From contig NC_057749.1 of the NCBI RefSeq assembly GCF_004010195.1, forward strand, positions 5,544,863 to 5,596,564: a stretch of DNA of 51,702 nt, given 5' to 3'. Source of the DNA: Chiloscyllium plagiosum (Eukaryota). The notes beneath the pieces were generated by a model that did no database searches, was not told where the DNA came from, and saw nothing but the letters and a program-made list of their open reading frames with translations. The translations under genes and the position numbers were made by a program. Positions 27,976 through 51,702 of the stretch are shown piece after piece (the stretch's first letter is position 1; each line of letters begins with the position of its first letter).

Positions 27976-30303
27976 CAAGAAACATAACCAGCTGTAACCA
28001 AAATCGTGGAGAAGACTCGACAGGCCTAATTCTGTGCCTATGTCTTGTGGCCAGATGAATTTAAAAGCCAAGTTCAATAGTTGTTCAACACATGACTGTT
28101 TTATCATGTGACGTAGTTAAACGCAGACTGTAGCATCCAATAGATGGGTGATGCTGCTCAACATAGAATTACTGCAGGTGATAAATTATAATCTGGTCTA
28201 GAGCTCTCAGGTAATATATAATTTGTGCAACGACACAAATTCCTCCTAAGCTGATGCACTGCAAAGAAAGTAGCAGTGATCTTAGCAATCTCTTGATTTG
28301 CTATTTCACTACTGCAATAGAAAAGTACAGGCCGACTAAATTAGATCATCCCACAATTTCTTGGTGCACTGCAAAATGCAATTCTTCAAATAGTCTTAGA
28401 AGCAACATGTCCACAGTAACAGTGCTCTAAAGCCGTAGACAGTTCCTTGTACGGCACTTGAATGGAATTATATATGGCTCGATTGTGGTATTTATGATGG
28501 ATACATGCTAATGCACAAGAGTTAGGAGGCTGATGCGTAGAAAATATTTGCCCTAAGAACTCAGTCACCAAAAAACCGCTACATTGTACTAGGCATTTCT
28601 GAGCCCACTGGGCAAAGGAGTGGGGAAATTTTTGAATAACCATTCTTTTCATAGATGGAAAAATAACTAACTGCTTCTCTCGCCATGGATGCTACTTGAG
28701 CTGCTGGGCATTTGCAGTATTTATTTCAGATTTCCAGCATACACACAATATTGCGCTTTCGTCTTTATACAAAATGAGAGTTTGGTTGGTTTTGGTTTTT
28801 TCCCCATTAAAGAACCCACCAGTTGTTCTGTCCGTTTCGCTCCCATTACATAGGTGTAATAGCACTTTTTAAAAATATCTCACGGCTAATCATAGCCATG
28901 CTAAGGAACAATACATTAAGATTTCACTGCGTAGATAAAATAATACAGTTTAGATATGTTAACACCTGATTAACCTAACCTTGCATCTGTGGAGAAGCTG
29001 GAGATATAGATTAATCTTCAGATAAGGTCCCAGAAAAAGCAGTCTTTTAAAGGAGGCAAAAACAAAATGAACCGCTACAACAAAGTCTTGGATACGGGAG
29101 CAAGGGTCATTCTTGTCTTTTCACCTTCAGCTATTTGGCTTCTTCAAACTGGAAACAATATATCACAAAAACAGAACGTGGAGCATCATAACGATGCAGC
29201 AGCTACCTTTCATCAGTACAACACAGAAAAACAAAGCAATTTTTAAAGAGATAATTTGCCTTTATCTCACCACCTGCTAGAGGGCTTCACAAGGGCATCT
29301 GATTCACATCAGGAGTATGCTATACAAATTTACCCCATGACATCCTTTGCTATTTCCTGATCAATTGACAAGGAATCCAGAGTAACATGTGGGAACAGCA
29401 GCCAACATTTTTTCTAAAAAATAAGTTTCTTTCTTCACCAATATTAATTCCAACAAGGCTGCACCATCAAAGGCTTGCCTTAGAGCTAACTAATCTCACC
29501 ATGTATAATGGCTTAAGTGATTCACACATCAGTAGATTTTCCAGTTTTCAAGCACATCAAAAAGGCCACTATTAAAACCATTAAGCCATGGCTTTGTTTG
29601 ACCATCACTTTAATTCAGACACGCTAGAAGTTCAGTATATATTCAATTCAAATTTGCAACACTCTGCCCAATTGATTTCCCCTTGGGCACACGGGATGCT
29701 TGCTCTCATGAAGCAAGAAGGAACTGAGACCCGTTTATGCTTCAAGAAAACAGTTGGGTTTCAGGCTGCTCGCCCTTCATGGGTGTTAAGACTATCTTCA
29801 TAGCAAGGACAGAATGAGAAACAGAATAAAGAAAACAGGTTGTTGGGATGCAAGAGATCTAAGGCAACATCAGGATGCACAGATAACTGAAGCAAAGATC
29901 AATGACATAGCTCTCAATTAGCTTAGGCTACCAAGTTCAGAGGCATGCCTGCACAGTACACAATGTGCACTTATATTAGGAATTTACATCAAGGTTTAGC
30001 AATGCAGAATTCTTGCACATACGAATTGAGAGAGTAGGTTCTATTTATTGTGACAATCTATTCCACCATGAGCACAGAGAGGAAACTTATCACATTTCTC
30101 TAAACTATCGATTTTCAACAATGGGGGAATTTCCCTGTAAAAACCAACACATTTCAGCAATTACTCATCTGGAAGAAAAGGATGGCTCTGCAAAGGCTTT
30201 CATGAAAAGAAAGTGAACTTGTTACCATATTAGAGCAGGAACGATAGGCTCATAGGCAAAGGGGGAAAAAAAAAAGAGCACAGCTTGTGCTCATAAGGAA
30301 CAT

Positions 30304-30451
30304 GGCAGCATCCAAGGAGCTTTGAAATCGACGTTTCGGTTTGCCCGAAATGTCGATTTCGAAGCTCCTTGGATGCTGCCTGAACTGCTGTGCTCTTCCA
30401 GCACCATTAATCCAGAATCTGGTTTCCAGCATCTGCAGTCATTGTTTTTAC
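30304..30451. mobile_element. Penelope-derived family-A fold-back element
   Basis: 36-bp arms 30304-30339 / 30345-30380 (2 transitions); 14-bp direct repeat CTCATAAGGAACAT (30290-30303 / 30452-30465). Confidence 0.85.
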
Positions 30452-31229
30452 CTCATAAGGAACATACCTCACTAGGGTGGACTGAAACCTGGTCAGAGAA
30501 GCAGAAAGTCATTTCAGACCAGAAGGAGGTCGCACGGCCCATTATACTTACTACCAGCTCTCAAAGAAGTCTACATGGTTCGTAATCTCCAGTGCAATTT
30601 TTTTTTCTTCGAAAAACTCGATTCTGAACGGTTTTATCTGATAAATAGAGAACATCACTACAAGAATATAGTGAGCACCTTGAAGAATTGTTTTTGAATG
30701 CTTTTAGAATAGGGAAGTCCTCCTTAAAAGAGAGAAAATAAAAATGTAGAATAGGATTTGAGAGAGAAACAGATTAACGTTTTACAAAATTTGTTTTGCC
30801 TTCAACTCAAATACAGCATATCTTATTCTTCTCTCCCGGTTCCCAATAACCCACTCCTCCTTTGACTTCCAGCTTTATTCAGGTTGCGTGAGGCTGCCAC
30901 AGTGCTGCTTGAGCACCTTCATGTCAGCAACCAGTTTAAGTATTTGGCAGGTGGGTTTGCAGCTGGATGCCTTTCCTATCACTAACGCACTCCATTTAGT
31001 CAGACAGCAGGCAAGGGTACAGACACATGCCAACTTGCTTGCACCAGTGGCTGGTTTCGACCAGAAGCATTTATAGTCTTGAAATTTGGTTTGAACCAGA
31101 GAGTATCTTCCATGTCAGGAGGAGGAGATCCACCGAGTCACTCCAGCACTCCCTATCCTAACAGCTTTCTTTATAGAGCTGAATGGGTGATCTCCAAAAG
31201 TATTTCATTCCTGTCTGGCGCAAGACTGC

Positions 31230-33300
31230 AAAAAAACACAATAGCAAAAACATGGCTCAGAAGGGAAGTTAGAGATAGGGTATTAGATGCAAAGAGGGAT
31301 ACAAATTGGCAAGAAAAATACCAACAGACCAGAGGGTTTGTAACAGTTTTATACATCAAAGGAGCATCAAGGGATTGATTAGGAAGGGGGAAAGTAAAAT
31401 ATGACCGCAAGGTTATAGGAAACATAAGAATTGGAGTGTAAAAGTTACTATCTATATGCAAAGAGAAGAAGATTGGTGAAAACTCATGTAGGTCCTTACA
31501 GTCAGAATGGGGATCAAAGAAATGGCTGAAGTAAACTCATACTTTGAGTGTCCTAACGAAGGACACAAACAACATGTTAGAAATGATAGGGCATACAGAC
31601 TTTAGTGAGAGGGAGCAACTGGAGCAAGTCTGTATTAGTAGAGAAATTGATGGGATTGAAGACTAATAAGGCCAGATAATCTAAATCCCAGAGTACTTAA
31701 GGACTTGGCCGTAGAAACAGTTGTATGCATTGGTGGTCAACTTCAAAGATTCTTTCGACTGTGGAATTGGACTGGAAGGTAGGTACTGTAACCCCATCAT
31801 TTAACAAGTGTGAGATAGAAAGAAAAAAAAAGATACTTCTGGACCAGAAGTCTGTCATCAGGAGTGAGGATGCCAGAGTTAATTATCAAGGATTTTATTG
31901 CAGAGCACTTGGAAAACAGTGGTAGAATCAGACAGTCAGCATAGATTTACAAAAGGGGAATAATGCTTGACAAATCTACTGGAATTCGTTGAGGATGCAA
32001 CTAGTACTGTTGATTGGTGAAGCCAGTGGAAATGGTTTATTTGATCTTTCAGAAGGTATTTGGCTAAGTCCCACATAAGAAATTGAAGCTAATGGGATTA
32101 GGGCTAGTGTATTTAAATAATAGCAAAATTAATTAAAGGCAGGAAACAGTAGGAATAAATGGGTCATCTGCTGAATGGTAAGTGTGATGAAAGGGGTACC
32201 TTCAACTACACTAGGTGTCCAGCTATTCGCAATATATGTTAATGATTTAGATGAGGGAACTAGATATGATCTCTTAAACTTTGAGATGATAGAGGTGGGA
32301 GGAAAGGTGACTTGTGAGGAGGATGCAGAGATGTTGCAATGCCATTTAGACAGCGGAGCAAGTGAGCATATGTGGATAATGCCACATTATCCACATATAT
32401 GATGTGCATTTAGTGTGCATCAATGAGAGGATATACACTTTGGTACCAAAAATAGAAAGACATTATTTGAATGGCTGTAATTTAAAAAAAAAAGAGGGGA
32501 ATATTCAAAGAGACCTGGGTGTCCTTATATGCACCAGTCACTGAAAGTAAGCACGCAAGTGCAGTAGGCAGTAAAGACAGCAAACTGTGTGTAAGCCTAC
32601 ACAGCAAAAGGATTCAAGTACAAGGGTGTATTATTGCAATTACACAAGCATTGGCGAGGCCACATCTATTTCGGTCTCTTTATCAGAGGAGGAAGGATGT
32701 GCTTGCTATGGGGAAGTGCAGCAAAGGTTTACCAGACTGATCCCTGGGGTGGTAAGACCCAATGCTAAGACTGGCTGGGTTAAGATTGTGTGGTGCTGGA
32801 AAAGCACAGCAGGTCAGGCAGCATCACACTCTCAACTCTAATCTTCAGCATCTGCAGTCCTCACTTTTGCAGAGTTATGATTGTATTCACTGGTGTTTCA
32901 AAAAATGAAGGGAATCTCAGAAACTTTTAAAATTCTAACAGGACTAGACAGGTTAGATACAAAAATGATGTTTCGGATAGTGGGGGAAATGTCAAAACTA
33001 TGGATAATAGTTTAAGGATAAGGGATTGAGATGATAAGAAATTTCCTCACCCAGAGTGGTGAGCCTGTGAAATTTGTTGCCACAGAAAGTGGTAGAGGCC
33101 AAAACAGTGTTTTCAAGGAGGTGATATATATATAGGTCTTGCGGCTAAAGGCATCTTGAGATAAGGTGAGGGAGATGAATGGGATTAGATGGGAGTCAGA
33201 TGGGATTAGAATCTGAGTTCAACAATCAATCATATTGGTTGGCAGAGCTGGCTTGAGGGACCAAATGACTTATTCCTACTCCCATCTTCTATGTTTCCAT
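31230..33300 (+). mobile_element. About 2 kb decayed CR1 LINE (RT domain to 3' tail), with a family-A PLE fragment inserted at about 32775-32870
   Basis: Remnants of SQHGF, CLTNLLEF, DFQKAFDKVPH (32041-32076) and LFAIYVNDLDEG; tail CTTCTATGTTTCCATGT. Confidence 0.85.
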
Positions 33301-36300
33301 GTTAAATTCTCCTTTTGTTCATATGATGGTGCCTATGATCAACTTATCAAATCTGAATTAGGAGCAAAAGGAGGTCATTCAATAAGATCATTGCTGATTT
33401 CCTATTTAACAAGTATACATCTACAGCCACCTTATTCAATGACCTTCAACATCACCACTTTGAACTAGTGTTCAAAATCACAAAAAGCTTCCCACCTCTG
33501 CCCTAAGACGATCATCCTTCCTAGCTCTGGACTAACCCACAAGAATAAACATCTCTTCCACGTCCATCTGGTCAAAGTCAGAGAGCTTGTATACTTCAAA
33601 TCATGGAATTCTAAAACATCAGCGGAAACATGTCTCAAATCTGACCAATATTTTAATCATAAGACAGTTCATCCATTCCTGGTATCAATCACACCTCTGA
33701 ATCCCCACCTTTCCATCCTGCCTCGAATAAAACTGCACACAGATTTCAAGATCCCCTTTTCAACTGAAGCGTAAAATCCTCTCTAAATTATTCCTAAAAT
33801 ATTTTATCCCTGTACTTCATTAGCGCTTAATTCTCAACATCTTGAGCAAACATCCAAATAACCTTGTTAAAACTTTAGCTCCAATTTCCAATGGCTCTTT
33901 GGAACTCTTGGGTTAGCCCCAGTTTGAAAGTGTCAGCACTCAACTTGAAGGTTATATTTGTCATACAGTAGGTCACAAGAATGAGCCATCTACATTCGGA
34001 TAATATCCCAGAGTTCAGAGATGGAATTTAGTGAACATATGTGCAGAACTGCACTTTTGAGATTAACATGCAAAGGATGATTTTTTTTTAAGAAAAATTT
34101 ATAAAAGCTAACCTTAGAAAAATATAATTTGTCAGCTGACCTCCATGCAGAGCAGTTACATCATTAGGGAGTCAGTATCACATACAACAGTCACACAAAA
34201 TAAAAGCAAACATTGTTACAACACCCTTTCAATAACAATCCTCAAATAGGAAATCAACTTCAAAAGATTATATATCCTAACTCCACTTTGTCAGTCAGTA
34301 AACATGATATCTATGTACCATTTTTCTTAATGCTAATAATACAGGGACAGTTAATTATGAAGAGTCTTTGAAGTGGTTTAAAAATGCATAGAATTATCCT
34401 TAAAATTAAAACGATATTTTTAAACATGGATTGCTTGAATTTTTCATCTTGTACTCATCAGGAATGCTAAATCTCAAATGATGACAATAATTTATACTAG
34501 AAAAGGGTGATGACTGATTAACAAGTCAACTGATTAGACAAAACATTGCTATAGAGAAAGCAAAAGGGAACTTTAAGCTCCCCTACCTCTCTTACTTCCT
34601 GTAGTAAAAATAATAGCAATTGTTTGAAATTTGGCATTCTTGCATTTGTCCTGATAAGTACAAGACAAAGTGCTTCGATGGCAGGACTCTCCTTTCATCA
34701 ACGTCCAAATTGTGTTCAACCAAATAACTAATTACATATAATGGAATAAAAAGGTTTGTGCAAATCATGTGGATAATTCTTATTTACGTGTCCACTCCTG
34801 CAAGAGAAGCTATTCACCTCAGTAGAAATCTAATTACAGAGGCAACACATTTAAAAGATCGGAGCAAGTCAGTGCAATGACCAACAGGACTGCTATAAAA
34901 TAGTAAGGACTTTCCTCGAGTACATTAACCAAGCAGCTCAATAGAACTGATCAATGGACGGTAACAGACTGCAGGCCTGGGTTTGTATTTCTACATGGAC
35001 AATGTTTACCGCTCAAGTGTTCAGGACATGATGATGAAAGCACACAATAATCCTCTGCCTACCAGCATTTTGAACGCTGTCCAAATACTTCACACAGATG
35101 CAGAGGCAGCCTCAAAGCAGCTGGAATCAGTTGTTTAACAGTCCTACAGCACCCCTCACAGGCCACTTTAAACATGAATGTAAATATCATTTCATCTGTA
35201 CTTCAGTTAATTCACACTCCTTAATGCTAGCATGATATCAGATGTGCATCTTGCGGAGATCAATTAAAACTCCCTTTACATAGTGGGTAAGAAAGATAAA
35301 TAGATAGAAAAGCCAATAACTTGCATTTATGTAGGAGTGGATAGCAAGTCTAGAACTATAGCTACCTAATACATGAAATGAAGCCAGAATTGGAGGAACA
35401 AAAAGGTCTTATGGCTTTAAGATTTGAGGAGGTTAGAGACAGAAAGACAAAGCTGTTGCTCCAATCAATGATACTGCCGAACAAAACTGAAGTTAAAAAC
35501 TCAACATTTAATAATCACCACATGCTGAAATCAAATTTTTAAATGAAGGTCACAGTAAGAATTTTTAAAGTTCAAATAATTTGCTCAAGTTCAGTGCCAA
35601 TGTAAATCCTGACAGTGCATAGTTAATCAATTGCTTCAATGCTTTAAAATGGTGAAGTACTGCCATCTACTGACAATCACTTGCAGCATAGCATCTAATG
35701 TTAATGCAAGATTTGATATGCAATGCTGCATTTGCAGAGGCCTGGTTTAACACCTTTAAATTAGACATTGACAAGCAGTTCAAATTGTCAATGAATGTGG
35801 AGGCAGTTAATCCTTCCCAATTTCTGTTGGCAAAATACCAAAATGAAAGAATATACATTACCACAAACCTGAAAAATAGAAATTACTGTATAAAAGCAGA
35901 TTGAGAACACTGCCCTGCTAACACTACCAAGTCTGTTTTTGACTGCTCTGTAACACAACTTTCAACATTCACTGGGAACAGACAAAATGATCTTGAGCTA
36001 TATTTCAGCTGGACAAATATGACTTAAGAATTGTGATAGTTCATTTGGGAGCTGGACAACTCCTTTTATGAAGCAAACAAATAAATATTTCTTAGTATGT
36101 CCCAATATTACACATTTTATTTTGTACAGCAAACAGGGCTGCAATTTTCGTGTATTCATTCACAAGCAGGCATTATCTCTAGCCTAATGATTCTCTTAGG
36201 CTACACCTATAGGTGGGTATAGGTCGAGAAATTTCTGTCTTTTGTCATATGTAGTTTGCAGCAGTTTATGCCTCAGAGTGGACTTTATTCCAACTAAGGA

Positions 36301-37039
36301 GAAAAAGAAAGATAGGAGCTGACCAAAATCTGAGAATAGGTTTTCTGATAAGCTCCTTTGGTAAGTGACACCTTACAATGTATAATGTTTTAAGTGTTGC
36401 ACAAGAGACGGAGAGGCCCTCTTGTGGCACAGTAGTAGTGTCCACAAGCCTGGATGGAGGGGCCTGGGTTCAAAACCCACCTGTTCCAGAGGTGCGTAAT
36501 AACATCTGAGCAGTCTGTCAAGGAAAAATATGTTAAATTGAAAAAAAATTAAGGAAATGTTTCATGAGCTTCTACTTTTGGGTACAGTTGCAAAAGTCAA
36601 AAACAGCAGGATTTTGAAAAGTTGCACATATCTTTCAATCCGGTTTCAATTGGGATATGGTTGTGAGCAGAATGGATTAAATGTTAACAGCTGTAGACTT
36701 ATCAGCCAAACAGTAACTTCCAAACCTTGTCAGGTGTGAAAACAGACTGATGAAAGAACTACCAAATCGAAGTTATTGTACTCGTCTACTAAAGTGCTAA
36801 AATACACAAAGCATTTGCTTCAATAAGAAATTGTTTTATACAATTAAACAGGACATTTGTGACCACCAGAAATTGTTTCTGCTCATGAGGTTTACAGAGA
36901 CTTTCAGCTCACGCGCTCATGTCATTATGATCTCATCTGGAAAGCCAAGTGATTGTTCATAGGCTTAACTTAAATATAAGGGAGCATTATGAGAAACTGA
37001 TCGATCAATTTTCCAGAGGGGAAAAAGAATGATTTATTC

Positions 37040-37410: not shown

Positions 37411-38741
37411 AGCATGATGAAGAATCACATTAGTCTTGTGCTAACGTCCAGTTTCTTTATATGTTTTATATTATTTAGTATCGGTGTTCAACCTTTTAAG
37501 TGTTATGGATTTTATTTTAAAATAATATATCAGTTAGATGTGTTTTTCAGGTAGAAGCTTCCCACAAGTTAATTGTTAGGCCAGTGATACTTAAGCAGAA
37601 TCTATTAGCTAGCATTTAAATGATTTTCATAATTTCTAATCATTCTAAAACACTTTGGTGAAGTACTTTTGAAGTGCAGTGCCTTCTACAACATGGAGAA
37701 ACTTGGCAGTATGTGCATAGCAAGGTCCCATTGGAGAATAAATACAGGCTTCAGTTCACTGTTCAATTTAGAAGTGCCATTAAGCTCATTAAATCAGTAA
37801 AGGTATTGACAATAAACTTGAACTGTAACAGATATCAGATTCCTCAGACAAGTCTCGAGGTTTACAGCACAAGAACTAAAGATTTGACAGCCTAAGGGCA
37901 ATTAGGCAGAGGCAACAAGGGTTGGCTCAGCCAGCAATAGGAACACCCTGGGAAAGAATATATGAAAACTTCATCTGTCTCAACTTTCAGCTGAGGGTAT
38001 CTGAAGACAAATTCACCTTCCTGATTTCTCTCCATTACCTTGCAACTTTTCTGTTTATATTTATCATTTTTTCCCATGAAAGAGGCCACACAGTCAACTT
38101 ATTATGTATAAAAAAAAGAGTTGTGCTCTGAAAGACCCTTTGTCTAAAATAATTCCTCAATCTTGCTTTTCAACCTCAACGGCAATTTTAAATTCTTCTC
38201 ACTTACAGGTTAAAAGGATAGAGTAACTCTACATATGAGACTCATAAGTTCCCTTTACATCACTGACAAAAGAACCAGAGAGGGAGTTTCTCTTTACTCC
38301 TGTTATTCTATGCAACATCTGACAGGGATGAAACTGAAATTCAGTACTAACAATCCAAAAAGGACTGGCCAAATCCATGAAGGTAAAAGAATATAAATGA
38401 ATAAGGAAGCAGCAAGGTAGTTGGACTGATTAGATAACTCTTTTTTTTTTTTTAAAAAAAAGAGGTACAACAGTGCAGACGTGATGAGCCAAATAGCCTC
38501 CTTTTCTGATTTGGTAACTTCAACCTGAGGAAACAGTTTTACCGGTTAACCCTTTTAAAAAGTTAAACACCTCTATTAAATCTCCTTTTAGATAGGGATT
38601 CAGAAAAAAAAAGTGATGTTTCTCATGTAAACCAATACTCAATCTATAGCTGCAATATGTTTCTTCACAATTTTGACTTCCCATTTCAGGAAGAGAAAAA
38701 TCCCACTACAGTGAGGCTTGTCTAACTCCACAGTGAAGCAG

Positions 38742-38939
38742 AGCCGGAGATGTGTTGCTGGAAAAGCGCAGCAGGTCAGGCAGCATCCAGGGAACAGGAG
38801 AATCGACGTTTCGGGCATAAAAAGAAGGGCTTATGCCCGAAACGTCGATTCTCCTGTTCCCTGGATGCTGCCTGACCTGCTGCGCTTTTCCAGCGACACA
38901 TCTCCGGCTCTGATCTCCAGCATCTGCAGACCTCACTTT
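38742..38939. mobile_element. Young Penelope-derived family-A fold-back element
   Basis: 82-bp arms 38739-38820 / 38831-38912 with one mismatch; 16-bp direct repeat CTCCACAGTGAAGCAG (38726-38741 / 38940-38955). Confidence 0.9.
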
Positions 38940-40214
38940 CTCCACAGTGAAGCAGCAGTGCAAAGCAATCACTTCAGTTTCACAACTTGCTAATTTAGAA
39001 AAAATAAAAAGATGTGGGGCTACATCATTCAAAATCTATTACTAAAGAGTGAACAGCTATATTTTTGATTTGTCCCAAACAACAGATTCAGATGCTTTAG
39101 GTCATTGAATTTAAATAAAATGTTAAACATTTGTGTTTATATTTCCTGTTAAAATTTATAAAAGGTTAATATATGCTGTCTATTCAGGTTCAGTTTAGTC
39201 TCAGCTCAATTTTTTAAGTTAAAAAAAGTAGGGTTTAGTCATTATAGGAGTAACATTCTGAAGGGGTTGAATTCCACTCATCTCATCACAGCGGATTGAT
39301 TGAAGACTGTTCTTGCCAAATCTATACCTAAAAGCAGCATAAACATACATGCATGCACAGACACAGAGGGGAACAACCACCTTCAGGTGTTATATTATGA
39401 TTTATCAAGGGTATCCAAGAAGCATGTGCAAGAGGAACTTGGAACATGGATGCAGAGAAGAAAAAAAAAAGAGAGTTGACTTATATACATGAGGTTGATG
39501 AAAAATGAACGATTTCTTGGCTAAAATTTGGGGGTCAATGTTTACACAAGCTCGACCATTATGCAAAGTGATAGTGTAAATTTCTTTGGACGCATATTCA
39601 CCAATGACATTCAAAAATTTGAATTGGTGCTAGTACTGTCCATATTCTTCTACATTTTACTATTGTAGCTTGGATTTAAAGTTCTGAACATTTCTCAACT
39701 TAATGACAATTGGAGTTTGAATGACCAAAAGCACAAATAGAACAAGGACTTTCAATAATTAAACTCTGCAGTAAGATTGCTATTACTGGAAATATTCTAA
39801 ATCTTGCCTCTGAATCACTGAGCGCACACAGGGTCATGGTACTTTCTATGTGAAATGACAACTACTCAATTTCTAAATGAGATTTTAGGCATGCTGACAA
39901 GATTAGCTACCTTACACTTATAATCCTGAACTGCACTGTGTACCTACATCTTACTTGCAAAATCCAAACAAACCTCTCAGCCCAAAATTTCCACAATACT
40001 TGGTACTGAAAGGATGTTTTCTTGGGTAATTTCCAAATCTTCTCCTTTGTACAATCTGTAGTGATTGTTCGCCTTCCTTAGTACCAGCGTAAACTAGCAG
40101 CTCTGCTTCTAAACTATTGATTCCTTCACTAGTATGAAGTTACTTTTATTGAGCATGCTTGGCAATTAAGTATACTTCAATAGTGCTCAAGGTTTTTGGT
40201 ATGGGGAACCTCAA

Positions 40215-41599: not shown

Positions 41600-41797
41600 A
41601 GTTAGGGTGCTACAGCAACTCGGGTGTGGTAGCATCTGTAGAGAGAAACAGAGTCCTTTGTTTGAACAGTTCTGATGAAGGGTCACTGGACTTAAAACAT
41701 TAAGTTTATTTTCCCATCTACAGATGTTGCCAGACCTGCTGAGCTTCTCCAGCACGGTTTTTGTTTTAGATTTCCAACACACAGTTCTTTCTTTTTA
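41600..41797. mobile_element. Older Penelope-derived fold-back element with degenerate hammerhead motif
   Basis: GCATCTGTAGAGAGAAA inverted to TTTTCCCATCTACAGATGT; CTGATGA-AGGGTCACTGGACTT-AAAA at about 41672-41697. Confidence 0.6.
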
Positions 41798-41809
41798 GCA
41801 TCGAAGGTT

Positions 41810-42160: not shown

Positions 42161-42336
42161 TCATAAATAATTTTAAAACTAATATTACCATGTGGTACAG
42201 TACTTCAACAGAAGTATGAAGACCATTTAATATTCAGAATATATAGTACAATTGAATAAAAAATTGTATAAAATCTGTATTATTGCATTTTCACAGAATT
42301 TGTTGATCAGGGATAGACTGTTTAAAACTTGTTTGT

Positions 42337-44580: not shown

Positions 44581-44926
44581 ATCATAGAATCCCTATGGTG
44601 TGGAAGCAGGCCATTCAGCTCACTGATTCCACACCAACCTTCTGAACAGCATCCCACCTAGGCCCACCCCTTACCCTGTAACCTTGCATTTCCCATTGCT
44701 AACCCACCTAGCATACACATCTTTGGATACTACAGGCAACTTAGCCTGGCCAATCCACCTAATCTGCATATCTTTGGACTGTAGGAGGAAACCAGAGCAC
44801 CTGGAGGAAATCCATGCAGACACGGAGAACATGCAAACCCCATACAGACAATAGTCAGAAGGTGGAATCGAACTATGGCCCCTGGCTCTGGGAGGCAGCA
44901 CTGCTACCCACTGAGTCACTGTGCCA
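44581..44926 (-). mobile_element. HE1-type SINE
   Basis: CATCTTTGGA..GGAGGAAACCAGAGCACCTGGAGGAAATCCATGCAGACACGGAGAAC..GAGGCAGCACTGCTACCCACTGAGTCAC. Confidence 0.85.
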
Positions 44927-45188
44927 CTCCAGAAAGTTCTCACCCAATATATTGATCAAACAGGCTGGGTGCCCTTCTACTAAATCTAAAATACTGGTAT
45001 TGGCATTGGTAGTATTTGACAGTTTGCATGTCTTAAGTCTGAACTCCAGTGATATGTATACTTTTTGTTCTCCCAAAGGAGTATTTTATGTTGAGCATTA
45101 TACAAATGAGAAAGGCCCACCTAGGACTGAGATGAACGCTTACAATATATCATTTGGAATTCAAAGAGTGTGTTTTTGGTTTTAAACC

Positions 45189-45890
45189 TGTGACAGTGAC
45201 TTTGAGTTAGCAAGTAATTTTGATCAGTGAGTTCAAAACAGCATCTCACAAAAAGCATGAGATTAAGAGATCAGATAAATGCCGGGTGAGATAATTGAAG
45301 TATTTAATAAATTGAGTTTTCAATTACCTACATAAAGGCAGTCAGGAGCCATAAGGAGGTCAGTTCAGAAGAATGAAAACAATCAGAAGGGCAGTTTTAG
45401 TTTTCTAGGCCAGAGGTCAAAAGTAGTTGCAAGCTGTTTTAATGTTAAAATAGGAGGGCTGGGAAAAGGTCCTGAGCATTTCTCAAGAGCTCAATAAAAA
45501 GGTCAATCAGCAAGCCTGTTAGTGTGTCACTAGGAAAGATGGGGGAGAAACACGTCTGGTGAAATGTGTAGGAAGTCACCAAAATGCAATGCTTACAACC
45601 TTTGCAGTTTAATAGGAAATTTTAAAAGTGAAGATCAGAGTGGGGTTGAGCATTTGTAAAGGATATTGCTGGGAAACAAAAAGGTCGAATCTTTCTTTGT
45701 GTTGTTCATAAGAACTTTCCAACTTATCAAAACTTTGTTTTTGTATAATAACCTAACATACTTCTGTCAAAAGTACATGGACTGCCTTGTGTTAGTTAAT
45801 ATGTTCAGTGACTGCCCCAAGGCAAAAAAAAGATCAAGTGAGGTTTAATTCTGGAATCTGACTTGTCCAGTATTCTCATCAGCTGGGATC
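45189..45890 (+). mobile_element. Possible decayed solo LTR
   Basis: Starts TGTGAC; about 700 bp with AATAAA; 3' end loosely resembles that of 47188-47797, but terminal CA and TSD are not clear. Confidence 0.35.
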
Positions 45891-46505
45891 ACCGAGACTG
45901 AAATAACCCTTCCAACCTCAAAGATTACTAGCATCAACTCCTTAAGGCAGAAGCAGAGAAATGTGTGTTTTGCAATGCTTCAAAAACCAACGTGAACATT
46001 AAGATAGCAAGACTAATTATTCAGCTTGCTGCACTAGTTATAACTGGTAAAGATAAGATTACATGGAGTTTTTAAGGTATATGCATGAGTCAGGAGCTAA
46101 AAACTGATCACACAGGAGACCTAAACCTTTACAAAGTTTGTGATTACACCTACAGAATATGGATTTGTATCTGGATTCCAGGAGGTAAATGGCATGTTTA
46201 CAGTTCAATGTTCTACCTAGGCTCATTATTCAAAAATATGATTACATATATTTTAATCAGTGTAGAATTCTGTGTGTAAGCAGAGAAGATTAAACCATTT
46301 AATTGGTTCATCCAACTTGCATGGACTCTATGACACAGAAACTGAATAGAAATTTCACCATTTTGAAATATAGACACAATCAACCTTAATGCCCTTGAAA
46401 GAAAAAGGGTCTGTAACAATGTTTGGAAGGTTAGAGATGTTACTGGGGTCCACAGCACATCTAGGATGCAAACACATTCACTTGTGATATAGTTCTCATA
46501 CTCAC

Positions 46506-46625
46506 GCATCCAAAGGTAGTAAATGCGTTTTGCCAGGACTTTGTGTGGTTCTGGAATTTCATTAAAATCCTGGTAAAAACACGGTTTCAACGGAATGAAC
46601 TTTGGGAGCGGTGGAAAATTGTTTT
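46506..46625 (-). CDS. SCAMP5: SCAMP5 coding exon 2 ([40 protein letters not shown])
   Basis: 120 nt, ttttctAG acceptor, GTGAGT donor. [15 protein letters not shown] motif is the start of the SCAMP domain; no N-terminal NPF repeats (SCAMP4/5 type). Confidence 0.96.
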
Positions 46626-47187
46626 CTAGAAAACAAAAGCATCATGTTTAGAATAATTTACAAGTAGTCAGGTTTAAGATAATTTAAGATTTGCTGTTTA
46701 TTAATAATGGTGACTCTTAGGCATCACTGCAAAGTTAAAGAATGTTGCTTTATACTGGGTCTACTTCTGGACAGCAACAATTCCTCCGACTCACCCTTTT
46801 CTCTTCCTACCATTAGTTTTTCCAAGCCCTTAGATGGGTGTTTCTGAATATAGTTGGATAACTGGGCTGCATTTCCTTTACTTTTCCAGCCCCCTTCATT
46901 AACGGTTTCTCTTACTTTCCCAGCTCTCATTCATTTAGGTCCTCAGACCCACAAAGTGAATATGCTAAGGTCCATAGCATTTCCAAGTTGACTGAAAGCA
47001 TGCTCTCTCTTACCATGTTACATTCCCTTTTCCACAGAGGGGCAGACACACAAGGAGTTCATGCTCCATTCCTTTTACCCATCACTATTTACCAGGCTTC
47101 TGTTTGTACCTCCATAACATTTTTCCTGATCCAGGTCTAATATTTCTTCTCTCTGCAGAAATAATGTTCTTTTGCACCAGTTCTTAC

Positions 47188-47797
47188 TGTGATGATCCTA
47201 TGGGTTTGTTCTGCTTTTTTTTTGTTTTAAAAACAATGTTTTAAGACAGAGGTGCCAGATATCTATTGAAAACTTAAACAGTTTGTTAGATCTTTGGGTT
47301 ATATTTTTAAAAGTTGGAACAATAGAAGCAGTCTGATGGGGTGTCGTCAAACTCTGGCAGAACCAGGATTTTTAGTTTTTGAGTTATCAGCATTAGCAGT
47401 TGTTGCTAGGTCTGTTGCTGCAGTACATCTCCCCCCTGCTAACTCAGTTCTCTTGATGTTTTTCCTCCTGGGGTTGCATGGGAGACAATCTGTTTTCTGA
47501 ATCTTTTGCCAAAGGTGTATTTATGGGATGTTACTATAGTGGAACAGTTACCATTTAGTAGCTAAGTAATCCTTTATTCTGTTAAGTTTTCCAATAGAAT
47601 TATAGCTAAGCCAACTTTTTTTGCTTTCTTTTGCTGTATTTTAAACTGCAGTGTACGAATAATGTTTTGCTCTTCAAATCTGGTAATTTGACCAATCGAA
47701 CTGCATCTGGAATGCACCACCTTGCACTTATTTCTAAATTAAGAAAAAAAAAGTCTAGACTATGTTGTTAATATGAGGTCTAGTCTGATCCATAACA
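47188..47797 (+). mobile_element. Solo LTR (610 bp)
   Basis: TGTGATG...CATAACA termini (TG..CA, short imperfect inverted ends) with 5-bp TSD CTTAC (47183-47187 / 47798-47802). Transcriptional strand not established. Confidence 0.8.
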
Positions 47798-49447
47798 CTT
47801 ACCCTTCTGCCACATTTTATATTTTCCTCTTTCTCCAAGTATCCTCGTTCAGCTTTCTATACTTTCCATCACTTTGCTCAGTTCCTTTGTTTAATTTCTA
47901 TTCTTCAGAAACACTCCACTTATCTGCCCTAAAACTGAAGACTTTTTATCATCTGCCAGATGCACACAGAGATAACTGCTCAGCTCTCCAACCAAAATAG
48001 AGGGGGGTCACCTACCAGAGGGGCACTATTGGACATGCATGCCTGTGTCCATCATGGCCACAGGTGGATTTCAAGCTAGCAGATGCTCCCAGCAAAGCAT
48101 TTCATACTCATCATTTAACAGGGCACTGACAGCCAGTAAATCTGCACAGAAAGGTTTGCCACTTCTATCCCTATCATCTTTCACTTGCACCTCAAAAGTC
48201 AAATGTGGGGTATAGTCAATAATCCCACATGTCCACAGATTCACAGGTTGTGCCAAGAAGGTCCTGAAATAGTAGCAAGTGGAGAGATGTTGGAGAAATG
48301 CTGTGATTTTCCTGTTTGCTGTGCTACCTTTTTGGCACTGCATATTTTGGAATATTTATAATAGATGCTTCTCAATTTCTTTTTACTTGAATGGGGGTGG
48401 AATCTTTTGGTATTTTGTGTAAAGGGGAAAAAAACAAGTTTTGAGTACTATAATTGGTGAACAGCAATAAGTAGTCAACCCCCTCTGATTTAGTCTTGGG
48501 CAAGGATTACTTAGACATTGGCCTCACTGCCAAACCACAGCAGAAGGCTTGTCAAATAGCTTTCAGCAAGTTATTCCAATTATGCAATAGCATTTAATTG
48601 ACCTTTATACTGCAATTCATTGTAAGTGTTGCATTGCTCATAGACAAATATTCAACTTATAATATGGAGCAAGAATACAGAATATCATTTAGCATTAATT
48701 TGCAAAATCATCCCTTCAAGCAATACATGCACCTTGCATTAAGGGTTCTCGTACTCAAATTTTCAAAATTCAAAATCAACAGAGCACAGTGGCTTACACA
48801 AAATAATGTTTCTTGCCAGAGATTGGAAAACAATTATGAATGAGGGAAGCATGCTTCTCCATTCAACTTTCCAAGACCTTCAAGTCTCCTCACTACTGCA
48901 TTCAGTTTGATCAACTGAACATATGAGGTCCAAGTATTTGGTGTGCTTATAGCTTAAAAACACTGAGCACTTTTACTATAATGAGCAGGTTTCAATGATC
49001 CAATTTCACTGAAGGAATGTGCAGAACCCAGGACGTGGCTTTGAATCCTTTAAAGTGCTCATTATTCTGCTTTTATCTTTAGTCATTCACAAGACAGAAA
49101 GAGCACTATGTGTTGTCACTCTAAATCAGATTCTGTCTGATCAGTCTTCAGCATGCCGATTGGTCGGACAGGGCTAGATGCAGAAGCAGAAGACAAGGAG
49201 ATGGATCAGGGTATTCAGAGGTTTCAGGAGGGCGAGATTGTTGACACAAAAAACTCTGACAGAATTAGCTCCTCAGAGGCAAGTGAAAGAAAATGGGTTA
49301 AAAAAAATTTAAACATCATAGGAATTATCATCGAAATCACAGATATCGGAAAGGAGACCTGCTGATGGTTTGGAGAGAAGGCCCTTTGTTCCCAGGGAAT
49401 GCTGAGCAGAAATTCAGTTGTACAAACTAAATGCCATCCATCCTTAC

Positions 49448-49454
49448 CAGTCAT
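49448..49454 (-). CDS. SCAMP5: SCAMP5 start-codon exon (coding part ATGACTG; whole exon 49448-49510 includes 5'UTR)
   Basis: Minus strand reads ttgtcttgtttttcAG|GTTAGATCG...CTTAAAT ATG ACT G|GTAAGG. Good acceptor and donor, A at -3, in-frame TGA 21 nt upstream. The 7-nt phase-1 coding piece joins the next exon to give MTENNFPP, matching the short first coding exon I recall for vertebrate SCAMP5. Confidence 0.8.
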
Positions 49455-49554
49455 ATTTAAGATGGTGTTTGCTCAGTTTCTGACGTCTCAAATGTGTAAT
49501 ACGATCTAACCTGAAAAACAAGACAATAAACTTTAAAACGTGGGCTAGTGCGGA

Positions 49555-49652
49555 AAATGGATGGACGGACAGACAGACGGACGAATGAACGAAAATACGA
49601 TATAGTAAGCAAATAGCAATGAATAGAGTTACCGGTATGAATGAATGAATGC
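49555..49652. repeat. Compound tetranucleotide low-complexity tract (GGAT/GGAC/AGAC/GAAT)
   Basis: atggatggacggacagacagacggacgaatgaacg...atgaatgaatgaatg. Confidence 0.6.
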
Positions 49653-49659
49653 AATATAG

Positions 49660-49762
49660 TAGAGTCAACTTATACATGAGATATGGAAAAAACAAGACTT
49701 TTTTGCCAAAATGAGGGGTTGTCTTATACATGGCATCGACCTATACATGAGTATATACAATA
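49660..49762. mobile_element. Tc1/mariner (Tc2/pogo-like) transposon end
   Basis: Three subterminal TATACATG motifs ending in GAGTATATACAATA, similar to Tc2-type TIR ends with TA. Confidence 0.5.
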
Positions 49763-50374
49763 GTTCAGATTAGATTGCTCTTTTCAGGCCCTGAAACTCC
49801 CTCCCTACAATGCTCATTTACACACTCTGTAGTGATTCAACTCACCATCTCAAGAGCAATGAGATGAACTACAAGTGCTGGCCTATCCAGCTACACCCAC
49901 GTTCTTTCAAAGAATTTTAAAAATCTGAAATAAAATTGAGTGCATGGTCTCTTCTACTGGAGGGTGACAATCAAATTAAAGCATACCTCAATGAGCAATG
50001 GCAAGTCAGCACGACAAAAGCACCTATTCCTCTGTCTCACACACCCACCCACACACACATACATACGTACAAATGCATGAAAGAACTGAATATTCTAATG
50101 GAGAATTCTTGCTGCACATTAATCAACATCTTGCATGTGCCAACATGCAGGCTCTGCTTTCTTTCTGGAAAGTGGTCTGAACAGCATTCCAGCAAAAAAA
50201 AAAAAGATATCTGCAAACCTTCAAACTGAAATTCTCGTCATTCTTCTACCATCCCTTGTTTCCTTGGAAAACAAAGATTGTGTAGTTGTACCAACTCCAG
50301 TTGGCTCATGACATGCCCAAATGCCACCACGTTTGGGCTGAATAGCCAGTTTTGAGCTCATGTCTTTGGGGTTG

Positions 50375-50566
50375 AAGAGTATGGTGCTGGAAAGGCACAG
50401 CCGGTCAGGCAGCATCAGAGGAGCAGGAGAATCAACATTTCAAGCATAAGCTCTTCAGAGGAACAGCTTATGCCCGAAATGTCAATTCTCCTGCTCCTCA
50501 GATACTGCCTGACCAGCTGTGCTTTTCGACTCTGATCTTCAGCATCTGCAGTCCTTATTTTCTCCC
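50375..50566. mobile_element. Penelope-derived family-A fold-back element (diverged)
   Basis: GGTCAGGCAGCATCAGAGGAGCAGGAGAAT inverted to ATTCTCCTGCTCCTCAGATACTGCCTGACC; ends CAGCATCTGCAGTCCTTATTTTCTCC. Confidence 0.8.
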
Positions 50567-51561
50567 ACAATGCTTTTTGGCCCAACCTGTTGGCAGTTAT
50601 CTTTCATCTAAGCCTATAACCCCAAACACATTTACTTGACCTATATGTGCTTTATTCCTTCATCTCTCTATTACAGCCTTCTAATACCTCCCCAAAACCA
50701 TCTCTTTCCTTTCAGTTCATCATTGGCTACCTCAGTGTCATTTTCCCTCCCTATTGCCTCTACCCAGCTCAGATGTCTTACATTGCTGGTTTTCTCCACT
50801 TGACTTACAAAGAATTGCTCACAAACATTCCAATTATAAAATGCTAGTTTTAACCCCTATAGGTCACGCTCACTTGGAAGACTTCCTGGCATTAACCACT
50901 TTGAGCTGAACTGGCATACTGAACGTATCACGATTATCCAGTTTAGAGGATAATATCGATTGAATCAACGCAAACTACATTATCACCAGTCCACAAGGAG
51001 GGCCTAAGTTTAATTTTTCATAACACATTGTCCAGCTAGTCAATAAACAATTTTAAAAAACACATGTAATCTTCTTCTTGGTTATACAAATATAAGGCCA
51101 AGGTAGGGACTCTCTGGACTATTCCCTGAAAAGCTCATTTCCAACCCACAAAGTCAAAATTAGCTTGCATTTGCTTACAATAAATCTTCATTTCATCTAA
51201 GTTAAAAATAGTGCCAAGATGAAATGAAAACATGCAAGGACAAACAGAGTCAATTTCCTTTCTCTGCCCCAACCTCTTCACTTAAGATGTTCAGCAACTA
51301 AACACTAAATACTTCCCACAAGCTCTTCTGCCTAATATTTACAACTTCTAATACATCAGCTAGTGGTTCAGTTTTAATTAAAAAGTATAAGCTAATTCAA
51401 TTGTCCTGTTTTGTATCTGGATGTGAAAAAGATGGGCAATTCACCACAGGTAATTTATAACTAATTAATGTTGGCCACAAAATAAAAAAAGAAAATCAAA
51501 TTGAATCAATGAAAGTAAAGGCTGTGAACTGAACATGCTATACAGTAGGCTAGATTGTAAA

Positions 51562-51702
51562 TTTCTGGATTAGTGGTGCTGGAAGAGCACAGCAGTTCAG
51601 GCAGCATCCAAGGAGCTTCGAAAATCGACGTTTTGGGCAAAAGCCCTTCATCAGGAATAAAGGCAGTGAGCCTGAAGCGTGGAGAGATAAGCTAGAGGAG
51701 GG
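51562..51702 (-). mobile_element. Penelope-like element terminus (family A), runs off the window
   Basis: Near-identical to the 30345-30420 arm; minus strand attcCTGATGA-agggcttttgccc-AAAACGTCgatt. Confidence 0.8.

What the first reader, a model, noticed from the sequence alone, without database searches (positions are those of the whole stretch)
30290..51702. Family A: TSD-flanked Penelope-derived fold-back mini-elements built on a minimal hammerhead ribozyme
Seen: copies at 30304, about 32775, 38742, 50375 and 51562 share sequence, and the complete ones end in CAGCATCTGCAG..TTT(CTCC/TTACC). Combining copies gives the consensus attc-CUGAUGA-aGGGC(uuau)GCCC-GAAA-CG-UC|gauu. That is a hammerhead core with stem II, a self-complementary ACGU in place of stem III and a GUC cleavage triplet. 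Two copies have clean 14-16 bp target duplications. Established: Penelope-like elements carry minimal hammerheads whose tiny palindromic stem III favours dimeric cleavage, and non-autonomous hammerhead retroelements (retrozymes) exist. Inference: these are a shark retrozyme-like or PLE-parasite system amplifying as 150-200 bp units. No single family-A copy here has a fully intact core; GAAA to AAAA fits CpG decay.
Basis: partly seen in the sequence, partly recalled or inferred. Interest (0 to 1): 0.72.

Follow-up and report, generated by a model that had tools for sequence, protein, structure and literature searches.

The report
Truncated fold-back Penelope-like retroelement copies
These short hairpin-shaped repeats are the stubby, dead-end tail copies that a Penelope-like jumping gene leaves when it inserts, each carrying that element's tiny hammerhead ribozyme motif; the kind is already known, though this shark-type genome holds an unusually large number of them.

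Summary
Six related copies lie at 30304-51702. The complete ones end in a 33-35 nt tail, and three short copies have 11-14 bp target duplications.

The repeats are Penelope-like element (PLE) termini. The copy at 51562 is the 3' end of a 2.44 kb, duplication-flanked, reverse-transcriptase-bearing PLE.

The fold-back is not a unit that copies itself:
- Junctions at the hairpin centre differ from copy to copy.
- The same junction types recur in different subfamilies.
- Usually only one arm carries the tail (6,347 one-tail matches against about 198 two-tail loci).

This is the published PLE insertion architecture: an inverted 5'-truncated copy plus a one-sided tail (PMC8557442, PMC3846280, PMC11167929).

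Retrozyme-like head-to-tail arrays are rare, 248 against 9,719 fold-backs. Folded as RNA, the hairpin buries the ribozyme core.

An earlier follow-up in this scan, on another piece of the same genome, reached the same verdict. New member of a known kind; modest interest.

The parts
30290..30303 (.). left target-site duplication of copy 1 (ctcataaggaacat)
   Evidence: read; repeated at 30453-30465
30304..30341 (-). copy 1, antisense (inverted) arm. Its outer end lies at about +28 of the body and it has no tail.
   Evidence: self inverted match 30304-30380, 88%
30343..30417 (+). copy 1, sense arm. It starts inside ribozyme stem II (gcccgaaatgtc; CpG decayed, no CUGANGA box) and runs through the 63-nt body.
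30418..30452 (+). copy 1, 35-nt tail (tctggtttccagcatctgcagtcattgtttttacc)
   Evidence: the same tail appears in genomic copies L022, L024, L032, L033, L038
30453..30465 (.). right target-site duplication of copy 1
32779..32789 (.). left target-site duplication of copy 2 (gttaagattgt)
   Evidence: the right copy gttatgattgt lies at 32874-32884
32790..32825 (-). copy 2, antisense arm (body +18 to the tail-less end); stops short of the ribozyme
32826..32873 (+). copy 2, sense arm: only the last ~12 nt of the body plus the tail
38728..38741 (.). left target-site duplication of copy 3 (ccacagtgaagcag)
   Evidence: repeated at 38942/38944-38955
38742..38820 (-). copy 3, antisense arm, tail-less
   Evidence: a 79-bp stem pairs it with 38831-38909
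38819..38846 (+). copy 3, ribozyme remnant. A deletion at the hairpin centre removed the CUGA box (3 mismatches to the core). The cut site would follow 38846.
38831..38909 (+). copy 3, sense arm
38910..38943 (+). copy 3, 34-nt tail (ctgatctccagcatctgcagacctcactttctcc)
50381..50565 (+). copy 4: decayed fold-back (arms about 50390-50452 and 50465-50527) with a tail at 50532-50565. No clear duplication.
51550..51560 (.). target-site duplication (CTAGATTGTAA on +) of the long minus-strand PLE copy
   Evidence: second copy at L009:2564-2574, outside the window
51563..51702 (-). Tail-less 3' end of a 2.44 kb 5'-truncated PLE on the minus strand. The ribozyme lies at 51627-51654(-) with one CpG mismatch. 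The copy runs on past the window into RT-coding sequence.
41723..41755 (+). short body-like fragment inside an older, divergent PLE terminus (about 41672-41790, with ctgatgaagggtcactggacttaaaacatt)

Best explanation
Family A is the terminal module of an endonuclease-bearing Penelope-like retroelement (PLE) family of a shark-type genome. On the sense strand the module reads:
- ATTC;
- a 28-nt minimal hammerhead, CUGA(A/U)GA-A-GGGC-loop-GCCC-GAAA-CG-UC;
- a 63-nt body;
- an optional 33-35 nt tail.

The short copies are extremely 5'-truncated insertions.

Shown:
- The same terminus ends RT/GIY-YIG-linked long copies.
- Insertions have variable 11-16 bp target duplications.
- About four in ten sampled arms sit in a fold-back.
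- One arm usually reaches the ATTC boundary, and the other stops at a variable point in or near the ribozyme.
- Nearly always only one arm has the tail.

Inferred mechanism: the element's protein nicks both target strands. Each 3' end primes reverse transcription at one of two neighbouring internal start sites on the element RNA; the tail is the stretch between them. Both cDNAs run toward the RNA 5' end, and their 3' ends are joined by 2-4 nt of microhomology (CC, CCT or TTC against the ...AGGAAT-3' end of a full cDNA). That creates a new hairpin at each insertion.

The sharp ATTC boundary is most simply a physical 5' end of the template RNA. It fits an initiator-like YYATTCC word about 30 nt downstream of a conserved TTATCT box. 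If so, most insertions are run-off copies from a start site only about 100-130 nt from the RNA 5' end and are dead on arrival. The ribozyme travels as a passenger: no arm begins at its cut site, and in fold-back RNA it is locked in a 79-bp duplex.
For: Linkage to a PLE:
- The 51562 copy continues, after a withheld N stretch, into minus-strand ORF pieces.
- The 228-aa piece has 184 homologues at E<=1e-5. The best is 81% identical to a Chiloscyllium punctatum protein, and many are 800-930 aa with RVT_1 and GIY-YIG on record.
- One homologue, rescanned, shows RVT_1 then a C-terminal GIY-YIG.
- The copy is bounded by an 11-bp duplication and has a 20-nt inverted tail at its 5' end.
- Long copies L044, L056, L060 and L065 carry YIGETG-type endonuclease ends upstream of the ribozyme. 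L044 hits GIY-YIG at E=0.0013, below the cut-off.

Scale:
- 88,166 exact cores.
- 192,628 exact body 20-mers.
- 9,719 fold-backs with both cores intact.
- All controls 0.

Architecture, in the 3'-anchored sample of 30 loci:
- 11 long copies, 6 starting 0-8 nt from ATTC|CTGA, 13 fold-backs.
- 0 arms begin at the cut site.
- All 13 fold-backs carry exactly one tail.

Genome-wide, there are 6,347 one-tail strand matches against about 198 two-tail loci.

De novo junctions:
- The 8 copies most like the window's 38742 copy each have a different centre.
- Of the 50 fold-back loci listed, 43 of 47 informative ones have the same loop-II type in both arms.
- 26 of those 50 fall into four junction classes that recur in 3-4 subfamilies.

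Fixed RNA 5' end: in L071, one duplication-flanked insertion holds 4.7 tandem 41-nt units, each starting at ATTC. L070 holds 8.1 units of 72 nt at 99% identity.

RNA and folding:
- RNA reads lose the family match at ATTC and at the tail end.
- The 38742 copy folds into a hairpin of -173.5 kcal/mol, z -24.

Literature:
- PMC8557442 (passages): inverted 5'-truncated copy, a 30-40 bp tail at one end, HHR in the pLTR.
- PMC3846280 (passages): inverted pLTR, a 31-bp tail on one of them, palindromes at the junction.
- PMC11167929 (main text): both strands nicked and extended; two internal RT start sites bracketing the tail; ribozyme cleavage not needed for insertion.
Against: - Priming of both strands is taken from in vitro work on a lizard PLE. 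That paper saw no difference in start site between strands, which does not by itself predict the strict one-tail rule seen here.
- Snap-back self-priming (PMC3846280) gives the same junction sequences and cannot be excluded from junctions alone.
- The transcription-start reading of ATTC rests on motif resemblance and on 5' ends of DNA copies. The only raw RNA reads available (single-cell polyA) show no pile-up of starts there and are unsuited to the question.
- CTGAAGA-type subfamilies are mostly short (2 of 17 long, against 9 of 13 for CTGATGA types; Fisher p=0.002). Simple truncation of autonomous copies does not explain this, and it leaves room for short non-coding masters.
- The endonuclease-coding part of the window-adjacent copy is withheld (N), so its GIY-YIG domain was not seen.
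- Pfam found nothing at E<=0.01 in 7 of the 8 ORF fragments tested.
Confidence: 0.82

Rival explanations
1. One reading: a non-autonomous, retrozyme-like parasite of PLEs. A short ribozyme-bearing RNA, as a fold-back or a ~100-230 nt single unit, is itself the master that is transcribed, perhaps cleaved and circularised, and copied in trans by PLE protein.
For: - CTGAAGA-type subfamilies are overwhelmingly short or fold-back: 15 of 17, against 4 of 13 for CTGATGA types.
- The TTAT-type 'long' copies L023 and L046 carry only 104-130 nt upstream of the ribozyme before a template switch or an inverted tail.
- Tandem arrays of 39-103 nt ribozyme units exist.
- A 2026 preprint argues that vertebrate non-LTR retrozymes derive from PLE pLTRs (10.64898/2026.07.22.740005; abstract and Results read).
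Against: - Fold-back junctions differ copy by copy and recur across subfamilies.
- Head-to-tail units number 248, against 9,719 fold-backs and 88,166 cores.
- The L071 array lies inside a single duplication-flanked insertion, so it arose during one reverse-transcription event and not from a tandem master.
- A CTGAAGA/TCAT copy (L030) continues upstream into the PLE ORF's C-terminal coding end.
- No arm starts at the cut site.
- No circular or back-joined reads appear in the one raw RNA run that laid (weak test).
- Short copies lack the upstream TTATCT/initiator region.
Confidence: 0.13
2. Same elements, different route to the hairpin: one cDNA reaches the RNA 5' end, snaps back on itself through the TTC..GAA or GGGC..GCCC self-complementarity at the ribozyme, and copies itself. 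This is the self-priming model proposed for rotifer PLEs.
For: - The commonest junctions (GCCCTTCTTC-CT-GAAGAAGGGC and relatives) are exactly what a 3-nt snap-back would give.
- PMC3846280 (passages) interprets palindromes at inverted pLTR junctions as self-priming.
- The strict one-tail rule fits a second strand that always stops short of the first strand's start.
Against: - Arms of very unequal length are hard to get from snap-back at the cDNA end. Examples are the 32790 copy, L046, and the 9-20 nt inverted tails at L071 and at the 51562 copy.
- Direct target duplications need a second staggered nick.
- In vitro, both strands are extended (PMC11167929).
Confidence: 0.3
3. A MITE or other DNA transposon with long terminal inverted repeats.
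For: The fold-back shape and flanking duplications resemble a MITE superficially.
Against: - Duplication length varies from 11 to 16 bp.
- The ends are asymmetric, with a one-sided 33-35 nt tail.
- Single-arm and multi-kb RT-bearing copies share the same 3' end.
- The arms stop at variable inner points.
Confidence: 0.01

Closest known systems
Insertion units of endonuclease-bearing Penelope-like elements (Penelope/Poseidon, Neptune): pLTR, adjacent inverted 5'-truncated copy, one-sided 30-40 bp tail (PMC8557442, PMC3846280, PMC11167929)
   Same: - RT with a C-terminal GIY-YIG partner.
- Heavy 5' truncation.
- Variable target duplications.
- Inverted copy head-to-head with a palindromic junction.
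- A 33-35 nt tail on one side.
- Hammerhead motif on the sense strand near the end.
   Different: - Here the great majority of copies are cut down to about 95-130 nt per arm, so the 'inverted pLTR pair' stands alone without any ORF.
- Copy number is very high: at least 192,628 arms by an exact 20-mer.
- A sharp 5' boundary lies 4 nt upstream of the ribozyme.
- The PLE clade was not determined.
Minimal hammerheads (min-HHR) of metazoan PLEs (Cervera and de la Pena 2014, PMC4209133)
   Same: - CUGANGA and GAAA boxes.
- An extra nucleotide before stem II.
- A G10.1-C11.1 pair.
- No helix III, with palindromic 15.2-16.2 (ACGU), suggesting dimeric action.
- Short helix I.
- Pairs of motifs on opposite strands 100-700 bp apart were noted in Schistosoma.
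   Different: - Stem II is the canonical 4 bp here, not the 7-8 bp of the Schistosoma families.
- That paper calls about 4,000 (coelacanth) and 9,000 (Xenopus) motifs 'remarkable'. Here one narrow exact pattern gives 88,166.
- Cleavage was not tested here.
Non-LTR retrozymes of animals (PMC7229834, search listing and abstract only; bioRxiv 10.64898/2026.07.22.740005)
   Same: Non-coding type-I hammerhead repeats related to PLE termini. A minority of loci here are head-to-tail arrays of ribozyme units.
   Different: - Retrozymes are defined by tandem units that yield circular RNAs.
- None of the window's copies is tandem.
- Genome-wide, tandems are about 40 times rarer than fold-backs.
- At least one array arose within a single insertion.
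Twin priming inversions of LINE-1 (recalled from general knowledge, no call)
   Same: The second target strand primes on the same RNA and gives an inverted 5' segment inside one duplication-flanked insertion.
   Different: In L1 the two segments cover adjacent parts of the RNA. Here both arms usually start from the same terminal region, giving a true hairpin.

Membership tests
min-HHR of metazoan PLEs | CUGANGA and GAAA boxes with an NUH (GUC) cleavage triplet | tested here: met
   The exact pattern occurs 88,166 times in the genome, control 0. In the window the best copies have 1 and 3 mismatches.
min-HHR of metazoan PLEs | [quoted passage not shown] | tested here: met
   CUGAAGA-A-GGGC....GCCC in the listed matches. 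G10.1-C11.1 and positions 10.2-10.4/11.2-11.4 were fixed by my search pattern, so those stem positions are not an independent test. The extra nucleotide was left free (N) and reads A in nearly all listed matches (G in one, C1:2318332), so it is not an artefact of the pattern.
min-HHR of metazoan PLEs | No helix III; palindromic 15.2-16.2 allowing a dimer | tested here: met
   GAAA-CG-UC gives the self-complementary ACGU. Dimer formation itself was not tested.
min-HHR of metazoan PLEs | Short helix I (4-5 bp) | tested here: inconclusive
   AUUC/GAAU pairs 4 of 4 in the CTGT subfamily. AUUC/GAUU pairs 3 of 4 in the others.
min-HHR of metazoan PLEs | Self-cleavage after GUC (as a dimer or with protein) | not testable with these tools
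   No pile-up of read starts or ends at the cut site in the one raw RNA run that laid; that library is unsuited.
Rfam hammerhead families | Match to a curated hammerhead covariance model | tested here: not met
   No hit at E<=10 in the window or on an intact copy, L063:1420-1600. These models expect a helix III.
Endonuclease-bearing Penelope-like element | RT followed by a C-terminal GIY-YIG ORF upstream of the same terminus | tested here: met
   The RT fragment next to the window has homologues with RVT_1 + GIY-YIG. Endonuclease-type ends lie upstream of the ribozyme in L044, L056, L060 and L065. Only L044 reaches Pfam GIY-YIG, at E=0.0013, below the cut-off. The endonuclease part of the window-adjacent copy is withheld.
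Endonuclease-bearing Penelope-like element | [quoted passage not shown] | tested here: met
   13 of 13 sampled fold-backs have one tail. Genome-wide: 6,347 one-tail matches against about 198 two-tail loci.
Endonuclease-bearing Penelope-like element | Adjacent inverted 5'-truncated copy, heavy 5' truncation, variable target duplication | tested here: met
Non-LTR retrozyme | Head-to-tail tandem units, each with a hammerhead | tested here: not met
   None in the window. Genome-wide, 105 + 143 spaced pairs against 9,719 fold-backs.
Non-LTR retrozyme | Unit-length circular RNA | tested here: inconclusive
   No back-joined reads in X20. That library is polyA single-cell and is a weak test.
MITE / DNA transposon | Fixed-length target duplication and symmetric terminal inverted repeats | tested here: not met
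   Duplications are 11-16 bp and the tail is asymmetric.

The most novel reading that the evidence does not exclude
The ATTC word 4 nt upstream of the ribozyme is the true 5' end of the PLE RNA, set by an initiator about 30 nt downstream of a conserved TTATCT box. The hammerhead would then be the first thing transcribed, and the protein's internal start sites would lie only about 100-130 nt from that end. Most retrotransposition attempts in this genome would be abortive run-off copies. The TSD-flanked arrays of 41-72 nt units would record a telomerase-related RT reusing a short template again and again in vivo. Some CTGAAGA-type subfamilies may in addition be genuine non-coding lineages.
Probability: 0.3. 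Interest if true: 0.55.

Novelty: new member of a known kind. Interest (0 to 1): 0.3.

Why it matters
For annotating this genome it settles what a very abundant repeat is. By an exact 20-mer there are at least 192,628 arms, roughly 0.5% of the genome as a lower bound by my arithmetic. It also warns that about 10^4 near-perfect 80-bp hairpins lie in transcribed DNA; reads run through them on both strands. Such hairpins are the kind of substrate that feeds double-stranded-RNA pathways, and PMC5625713 (passages) reports Penelope as the one massively edited element of this type in lizard.

For the biology of mobile elements, the genome is a large natural record of PLE insertion products. Thousands of junctions, the one-tail rule, the fixed 5' boundary and the in-insertion micro-arrays can all be used to test the in vitro model of PMC11167929.

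It does not reveal a new class of element.

Tried and rejected
- Rfam at gathering and at E<=10 on the window, and on an intact genomic copy: no hammerhead. The fold-backs drew only sub-threshold microRNA-hairpin look-alikes (MIR533 35.8 bits against a gathering score of 80; mir-680 32.8 against 104). I read these as hairpin shape only.
- Pfam on eight ORF fragments: one sub-threshold GIY-YIG hit and nothing else.
- RNA runs: no RNA holder listed. Of four runs laid, raw-read run X21 laid 0 reads. X20 laid 925 reads with no start/end pile-ups and no joints. X8 and X1 are contigs of unknown kind.
So I could not check whether that 257-arm subfamily has ORF-bearing members. The position list does show inverted pairs 456-1,389 bp apart, so longer arms exist.
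- Literature: 'hammerhead ribozyme' + 'Penelope' + 'cartilaginous' found 0 papers. 'Penelope' + 'shark' + 'transposable elements' + 'genome' found 17, and none in the listing was about this family. I therefore found no description of this shark family in the held library, which lacks most subscription journals and Repbase/Dfam.
- An ORF starting at the AUG inside CUGAUGA was considered and dropped: the frame closes after 17 codons in L063 but stays open in the 51562 copy, so it is not conserved.
- A downstream-promoter-element reading of the ribozyme region was considered and dropped as too loose.
- Pol III transcription was considered unlikely, on recalled rules: no box B-like word, and the body holds T4 runs.

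Full report
**1. What is in the window**

blastn of the five named copies against the window finds related sequence at 30304-30453, 32783-32870, 38739-38944, 41723-41755, 50371-50565 and 51563-51702. Identities are 77-95%. There is no family A sequence before 30 kb. A search with natural arms from other loci adds only a PLE coding fragment at 1-136 and a weak match at 4844-4891.

Reading the sequence gives a common plan:
- an inverted (antisense) arm;
- a sense arm holding the 3' half or more of a hammerhead-like motif and a 63-nt body;
- on the sense arm only, a 33-35 nt tail containing cagcatctgcag.

Target duplications flank three short copies:
- 30304: 13-14 bp;
- 38742: 12-14 bp;
- 32790: 11 bp with one mismatch.

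No window copy has an intact ribozyme core. The best are 51627-51654(-) with one mismatch (GAAA to AAAA at a CpG) and 38819-38846(+) with three. Shuffled sequence gives none. Rfam finds no hammerhead at E<=10 and only sub-threshold microRNA-hairpin look-alikes on the fold-backs.

**2. The composite ribozyme is real at family level**

The window lies in a held 3.56 Gb assembly.
- The pattern CTGANGANGGGCNNNNGCCCGAAACGTC occurs 44,050 + 44,116 times. The reversed control gives 0.
- A body 20-mer occurs 96,499 + 96,129 times, control 0.
- Loop II defines subfamilies: TTAT, CTGT, TAAT and TCAT with CTGAAGA, and TTTT with CTGATGA.

The motif has the features that Cervera and de la Pena list for PLE minimal hammerheads (PMC4209133; abstract, Results, Discussion and the first Methods subsections read):
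- an extra nucleotide before stem II;
- a G10.1-C11.1 pair;
- no helix III, with palindromic 15.2-16.2 (ACGU);
- a short helix I, AUUC with GAAU or GAUU.

Rfam models do not see it even on an intact copy. That paper calls about 4,000 and 9,000 motifs in coelacanth and Xenopus remarkable, so the load here is about ten times larger.

**3. Link to an autonomous element**

The 51562 copy runs off the window. Beyond a withheld N stretch the same strand carries ORF pieces.
- A 228-aa piece has 184 homologues at E<=1e-5. The best is 81% identical to a Chiloscyllium punctatum protein. Many are 800-930 aa proteins with RVT_1 and GIY-YIG on record.
- One homologue, rescanned, shows RVT_1 followed by a C-terminal GIY-YIG.
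- The copy is 2.44 kb and 5'-truncated. It ends tail-less at window 51563, has a 20-nt inverted tail at its other end, and is bounded by an 11-bp duplication.
- Elsewhere, long copies carry endonuclease-type ends (YIGETG) a few hundred bases upstream of the ribozyme. Only one reaches Pfam GIY-YIG, below the cut-off, and 7 of 8 fragments gave nothing.
- A CTGAAGA/TCAT copy (L030) also continues upstream into the ORF's C-terminal coding end.

**4. Are fold-backs copied as units?**

The 38742 copy has at least 40 full-length relatives at 91-97% identity among the 40 candidates scored, out of 2,373 found in the first look. On its face that favours a unit. Five observations count against it.
- The eight best relatives, aligned with flanks, share their ends but each has a different centre and its own 12-15 bp duplication.
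- In a position-ordered sample anchored on the body (30 loci), 11 arms are long, 6 start 0-8 nt from ATTC|CTGA and 13 are fold-backs. The fold-back junctions all differ. Usually one arm reaches ATTC and the other stops inside the ribozyme.
- Genome-wide, 9,719 fold-backs keep both cores. Of the 50 listed, 43 of 47 informative ones have the same loop-II type in both arms. 26 fall into four junction classes that recur in three or four subfamilies. Inheritance from one master cannot explain this. Repeated formation by microhomology can: CC, CCT or TTC pairing with the ...AGGAAT-3' end of a full-length cDNA.
- Arms can be very unequal. Examples are the 32790 copy, L046, and inverted tails of 9 and 20 nt at L071 and at the 51562 copy.
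- The ccggag subfamily has only 257 exact arms and includes inverted pairs 456-1,389 bp apart.

**5. The tail**

All 13 sampled fold-backs have exactly one tail. Genome-wide, 6,347 strand matches show a tail on one arm with both cores intact. About 198 loci show tails on both arms; the two patterns differ in stringency, so the ratio is rough. Single arms occur with and without the tail in similar numbers. Three copies (window 30304, L040, L057) have the tail-less arm ending at about +28, which suggests a third start point.

**6. Retrozyme test**

Head-to-tail ribozyme pairs spaced 55-85 and 86-116 nt number 105 and 143. That is about 40 times fewer than fold-backs.

Two arrays were read:
- L070 has 8.1 units of 72 nt at 99% identity.
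- L071 has 4.7 units of 41 nt inside one insertion flanked by a 12-13 bp duplication, with a 9-nt inverted tail at the other end.
- Every unit starts at ATTC.

So the L071 array arose during a single reverse-transcription event, by repeated jumps from a fixed 5' end. It did not come from a tandem master.

**7. The ATTC boundary**

Four lines of evidence put a 5' end at ATTC:
- 5' ends of single arms;
- the complete arm of fold-backs;
- the units of micro-arrays;
- the point where RNA and contig reads stop matching the family (L063:1453).

No arm starts at the ribozyme cut site.

All long copies of divergent subfamilies have TTATCT about 32 nt upstream and YYATTCC at the boundary. This looks like a TATA-like box plus an initiator. 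PMC3846280 noted TATA and initiator-like words in rotifer pLTRs. The start-site reading is an inference and was not tested.

**8. RNA**

No RNA holder was listed. One raw single-cell polyA run laid 925 reads on both strands. Of these, 95% ran on into unlike flanks, with no pile-ups of starts or ends and no joints. This fits passive read-through transcription but is a weak test.

Folded as RNA, the 38742 copy is a 79-bp hairpin of -173.5 kcal/mol, z -24. The ribozyme core cannot form in such a hairpin.

**9. Comparison with what is known**

- Craig et al. (PMC8557442, passages) describe PLE insertions as heavily 5'-truncated, often with an adjacent inverted 5'-truncated copy and a 30-40 bp tail at one end, with hammerheads in the pLTR.
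- Arkhipova et al. (PMC3846280, passages) describe an inverted pLTR, a 31-bp tail on one of the inverted pLTRs and palindromes at the junction, which they read as self-priming.
- Frangieh et al. (PMC11167929, main text) show a lizard PLE protein that nicks and extends both strands. It starts reverse transcription at two internal sites that bracket the tail and does not need ribozyme cleavage.

The window's elements are this architecture cut down to its last 95-130 nt per arm.

An earlier follow-up in this scan, on another piece of the same genome (e1-7788964), reached the same verdict. I re-derived it independently.

**10. What stays open**

- CTGAAGA-type subfamilies are mostly short: 2 of 17 long, against 9 of 13 for CTGATGA types (Fisher p=0.002). 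They may have short non-coding masters.
- Two-strand priming and snap-back cannot be told apart from junctions alone.
- Ribozyme activity, the RNA 5' end and the PLE clade are untested.
- Supplements of the bioRxiv preprint were not available, and Repbase/Dfam could not be consulted, so the family may already be catalogued there.

**Verdict**

This is a new member of a known kind, notable mainly for its scale and as a data set on PLE integration.

Noticed in passing
window 1-136: The window opens inside another PLE copy. 136 nt are 93% identical to the region upstream of the ribozyme in L056 and read as the C-terminal end of the endonuclease ORF (...AEDMEVLGLLH...EERLIF.LGTL). The match breaks off at 136.
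   Followed up: partly
window 41672-41790: An older, divergent ribozyme-bearing terminus (ctgatgaagggtcactggacttaaaacatt, then a body-like ...gccagacctgctgagcttctccagcac). It looks like a second, more decayed PLE family with a different stem II.
   Followed up: no
window 12718-12799 (+): Rfam tRNA match just above threshold (29.7 bits against a gathering score of 29), 82 nt with a long variable arm. It may be a tRNA gene or a tRNA-derived repeat.
   Followed up: no
L071:173-426 (G000:C7): One duplication-flanked insertion holds 4.7 tandem 41-nt units (ATTC, ribozyme, 7-9 nt after the cut site), then a full tail-less body, with a 9-nt inverted tail at the other end. The ribozyme micro-array was made within a single insertion event.
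   Followed up: partly
L070:242-823 (G000:C15): 8.1 tandem units of 72 nt at 99% identity, each holding ATTC, the ribozyme and 44 nt of body. The junction shares TTCC between the ATTC site and the body. The upstream flank is withheld.
   Followed up: partly
L009:266-1335 and parts of L013, L014, L030, L034, L064, L067, L070: Runs of N lie just where the coding part of long PLE copies should be, so the endonuclease region of the window-adjacent copy could not be read.
   Followed up: no
L006 (G000:C43:11996639-11996897): A fold-back copy inserted into the tail of another copy (its duplication is gagaaagtgaggact, part of an inverted tail). This fits a preference for the element's own terminus as a target, as reported for PLE endonuclease.
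   Followed up: no
L063:1300-1700, runs X1-X18: Runs labelled with four different coded organisms hold 36-81% of the sampled 31-mers of a long copy. Near-identical family members therefore appear to be present in several related species.
   Followed up: no
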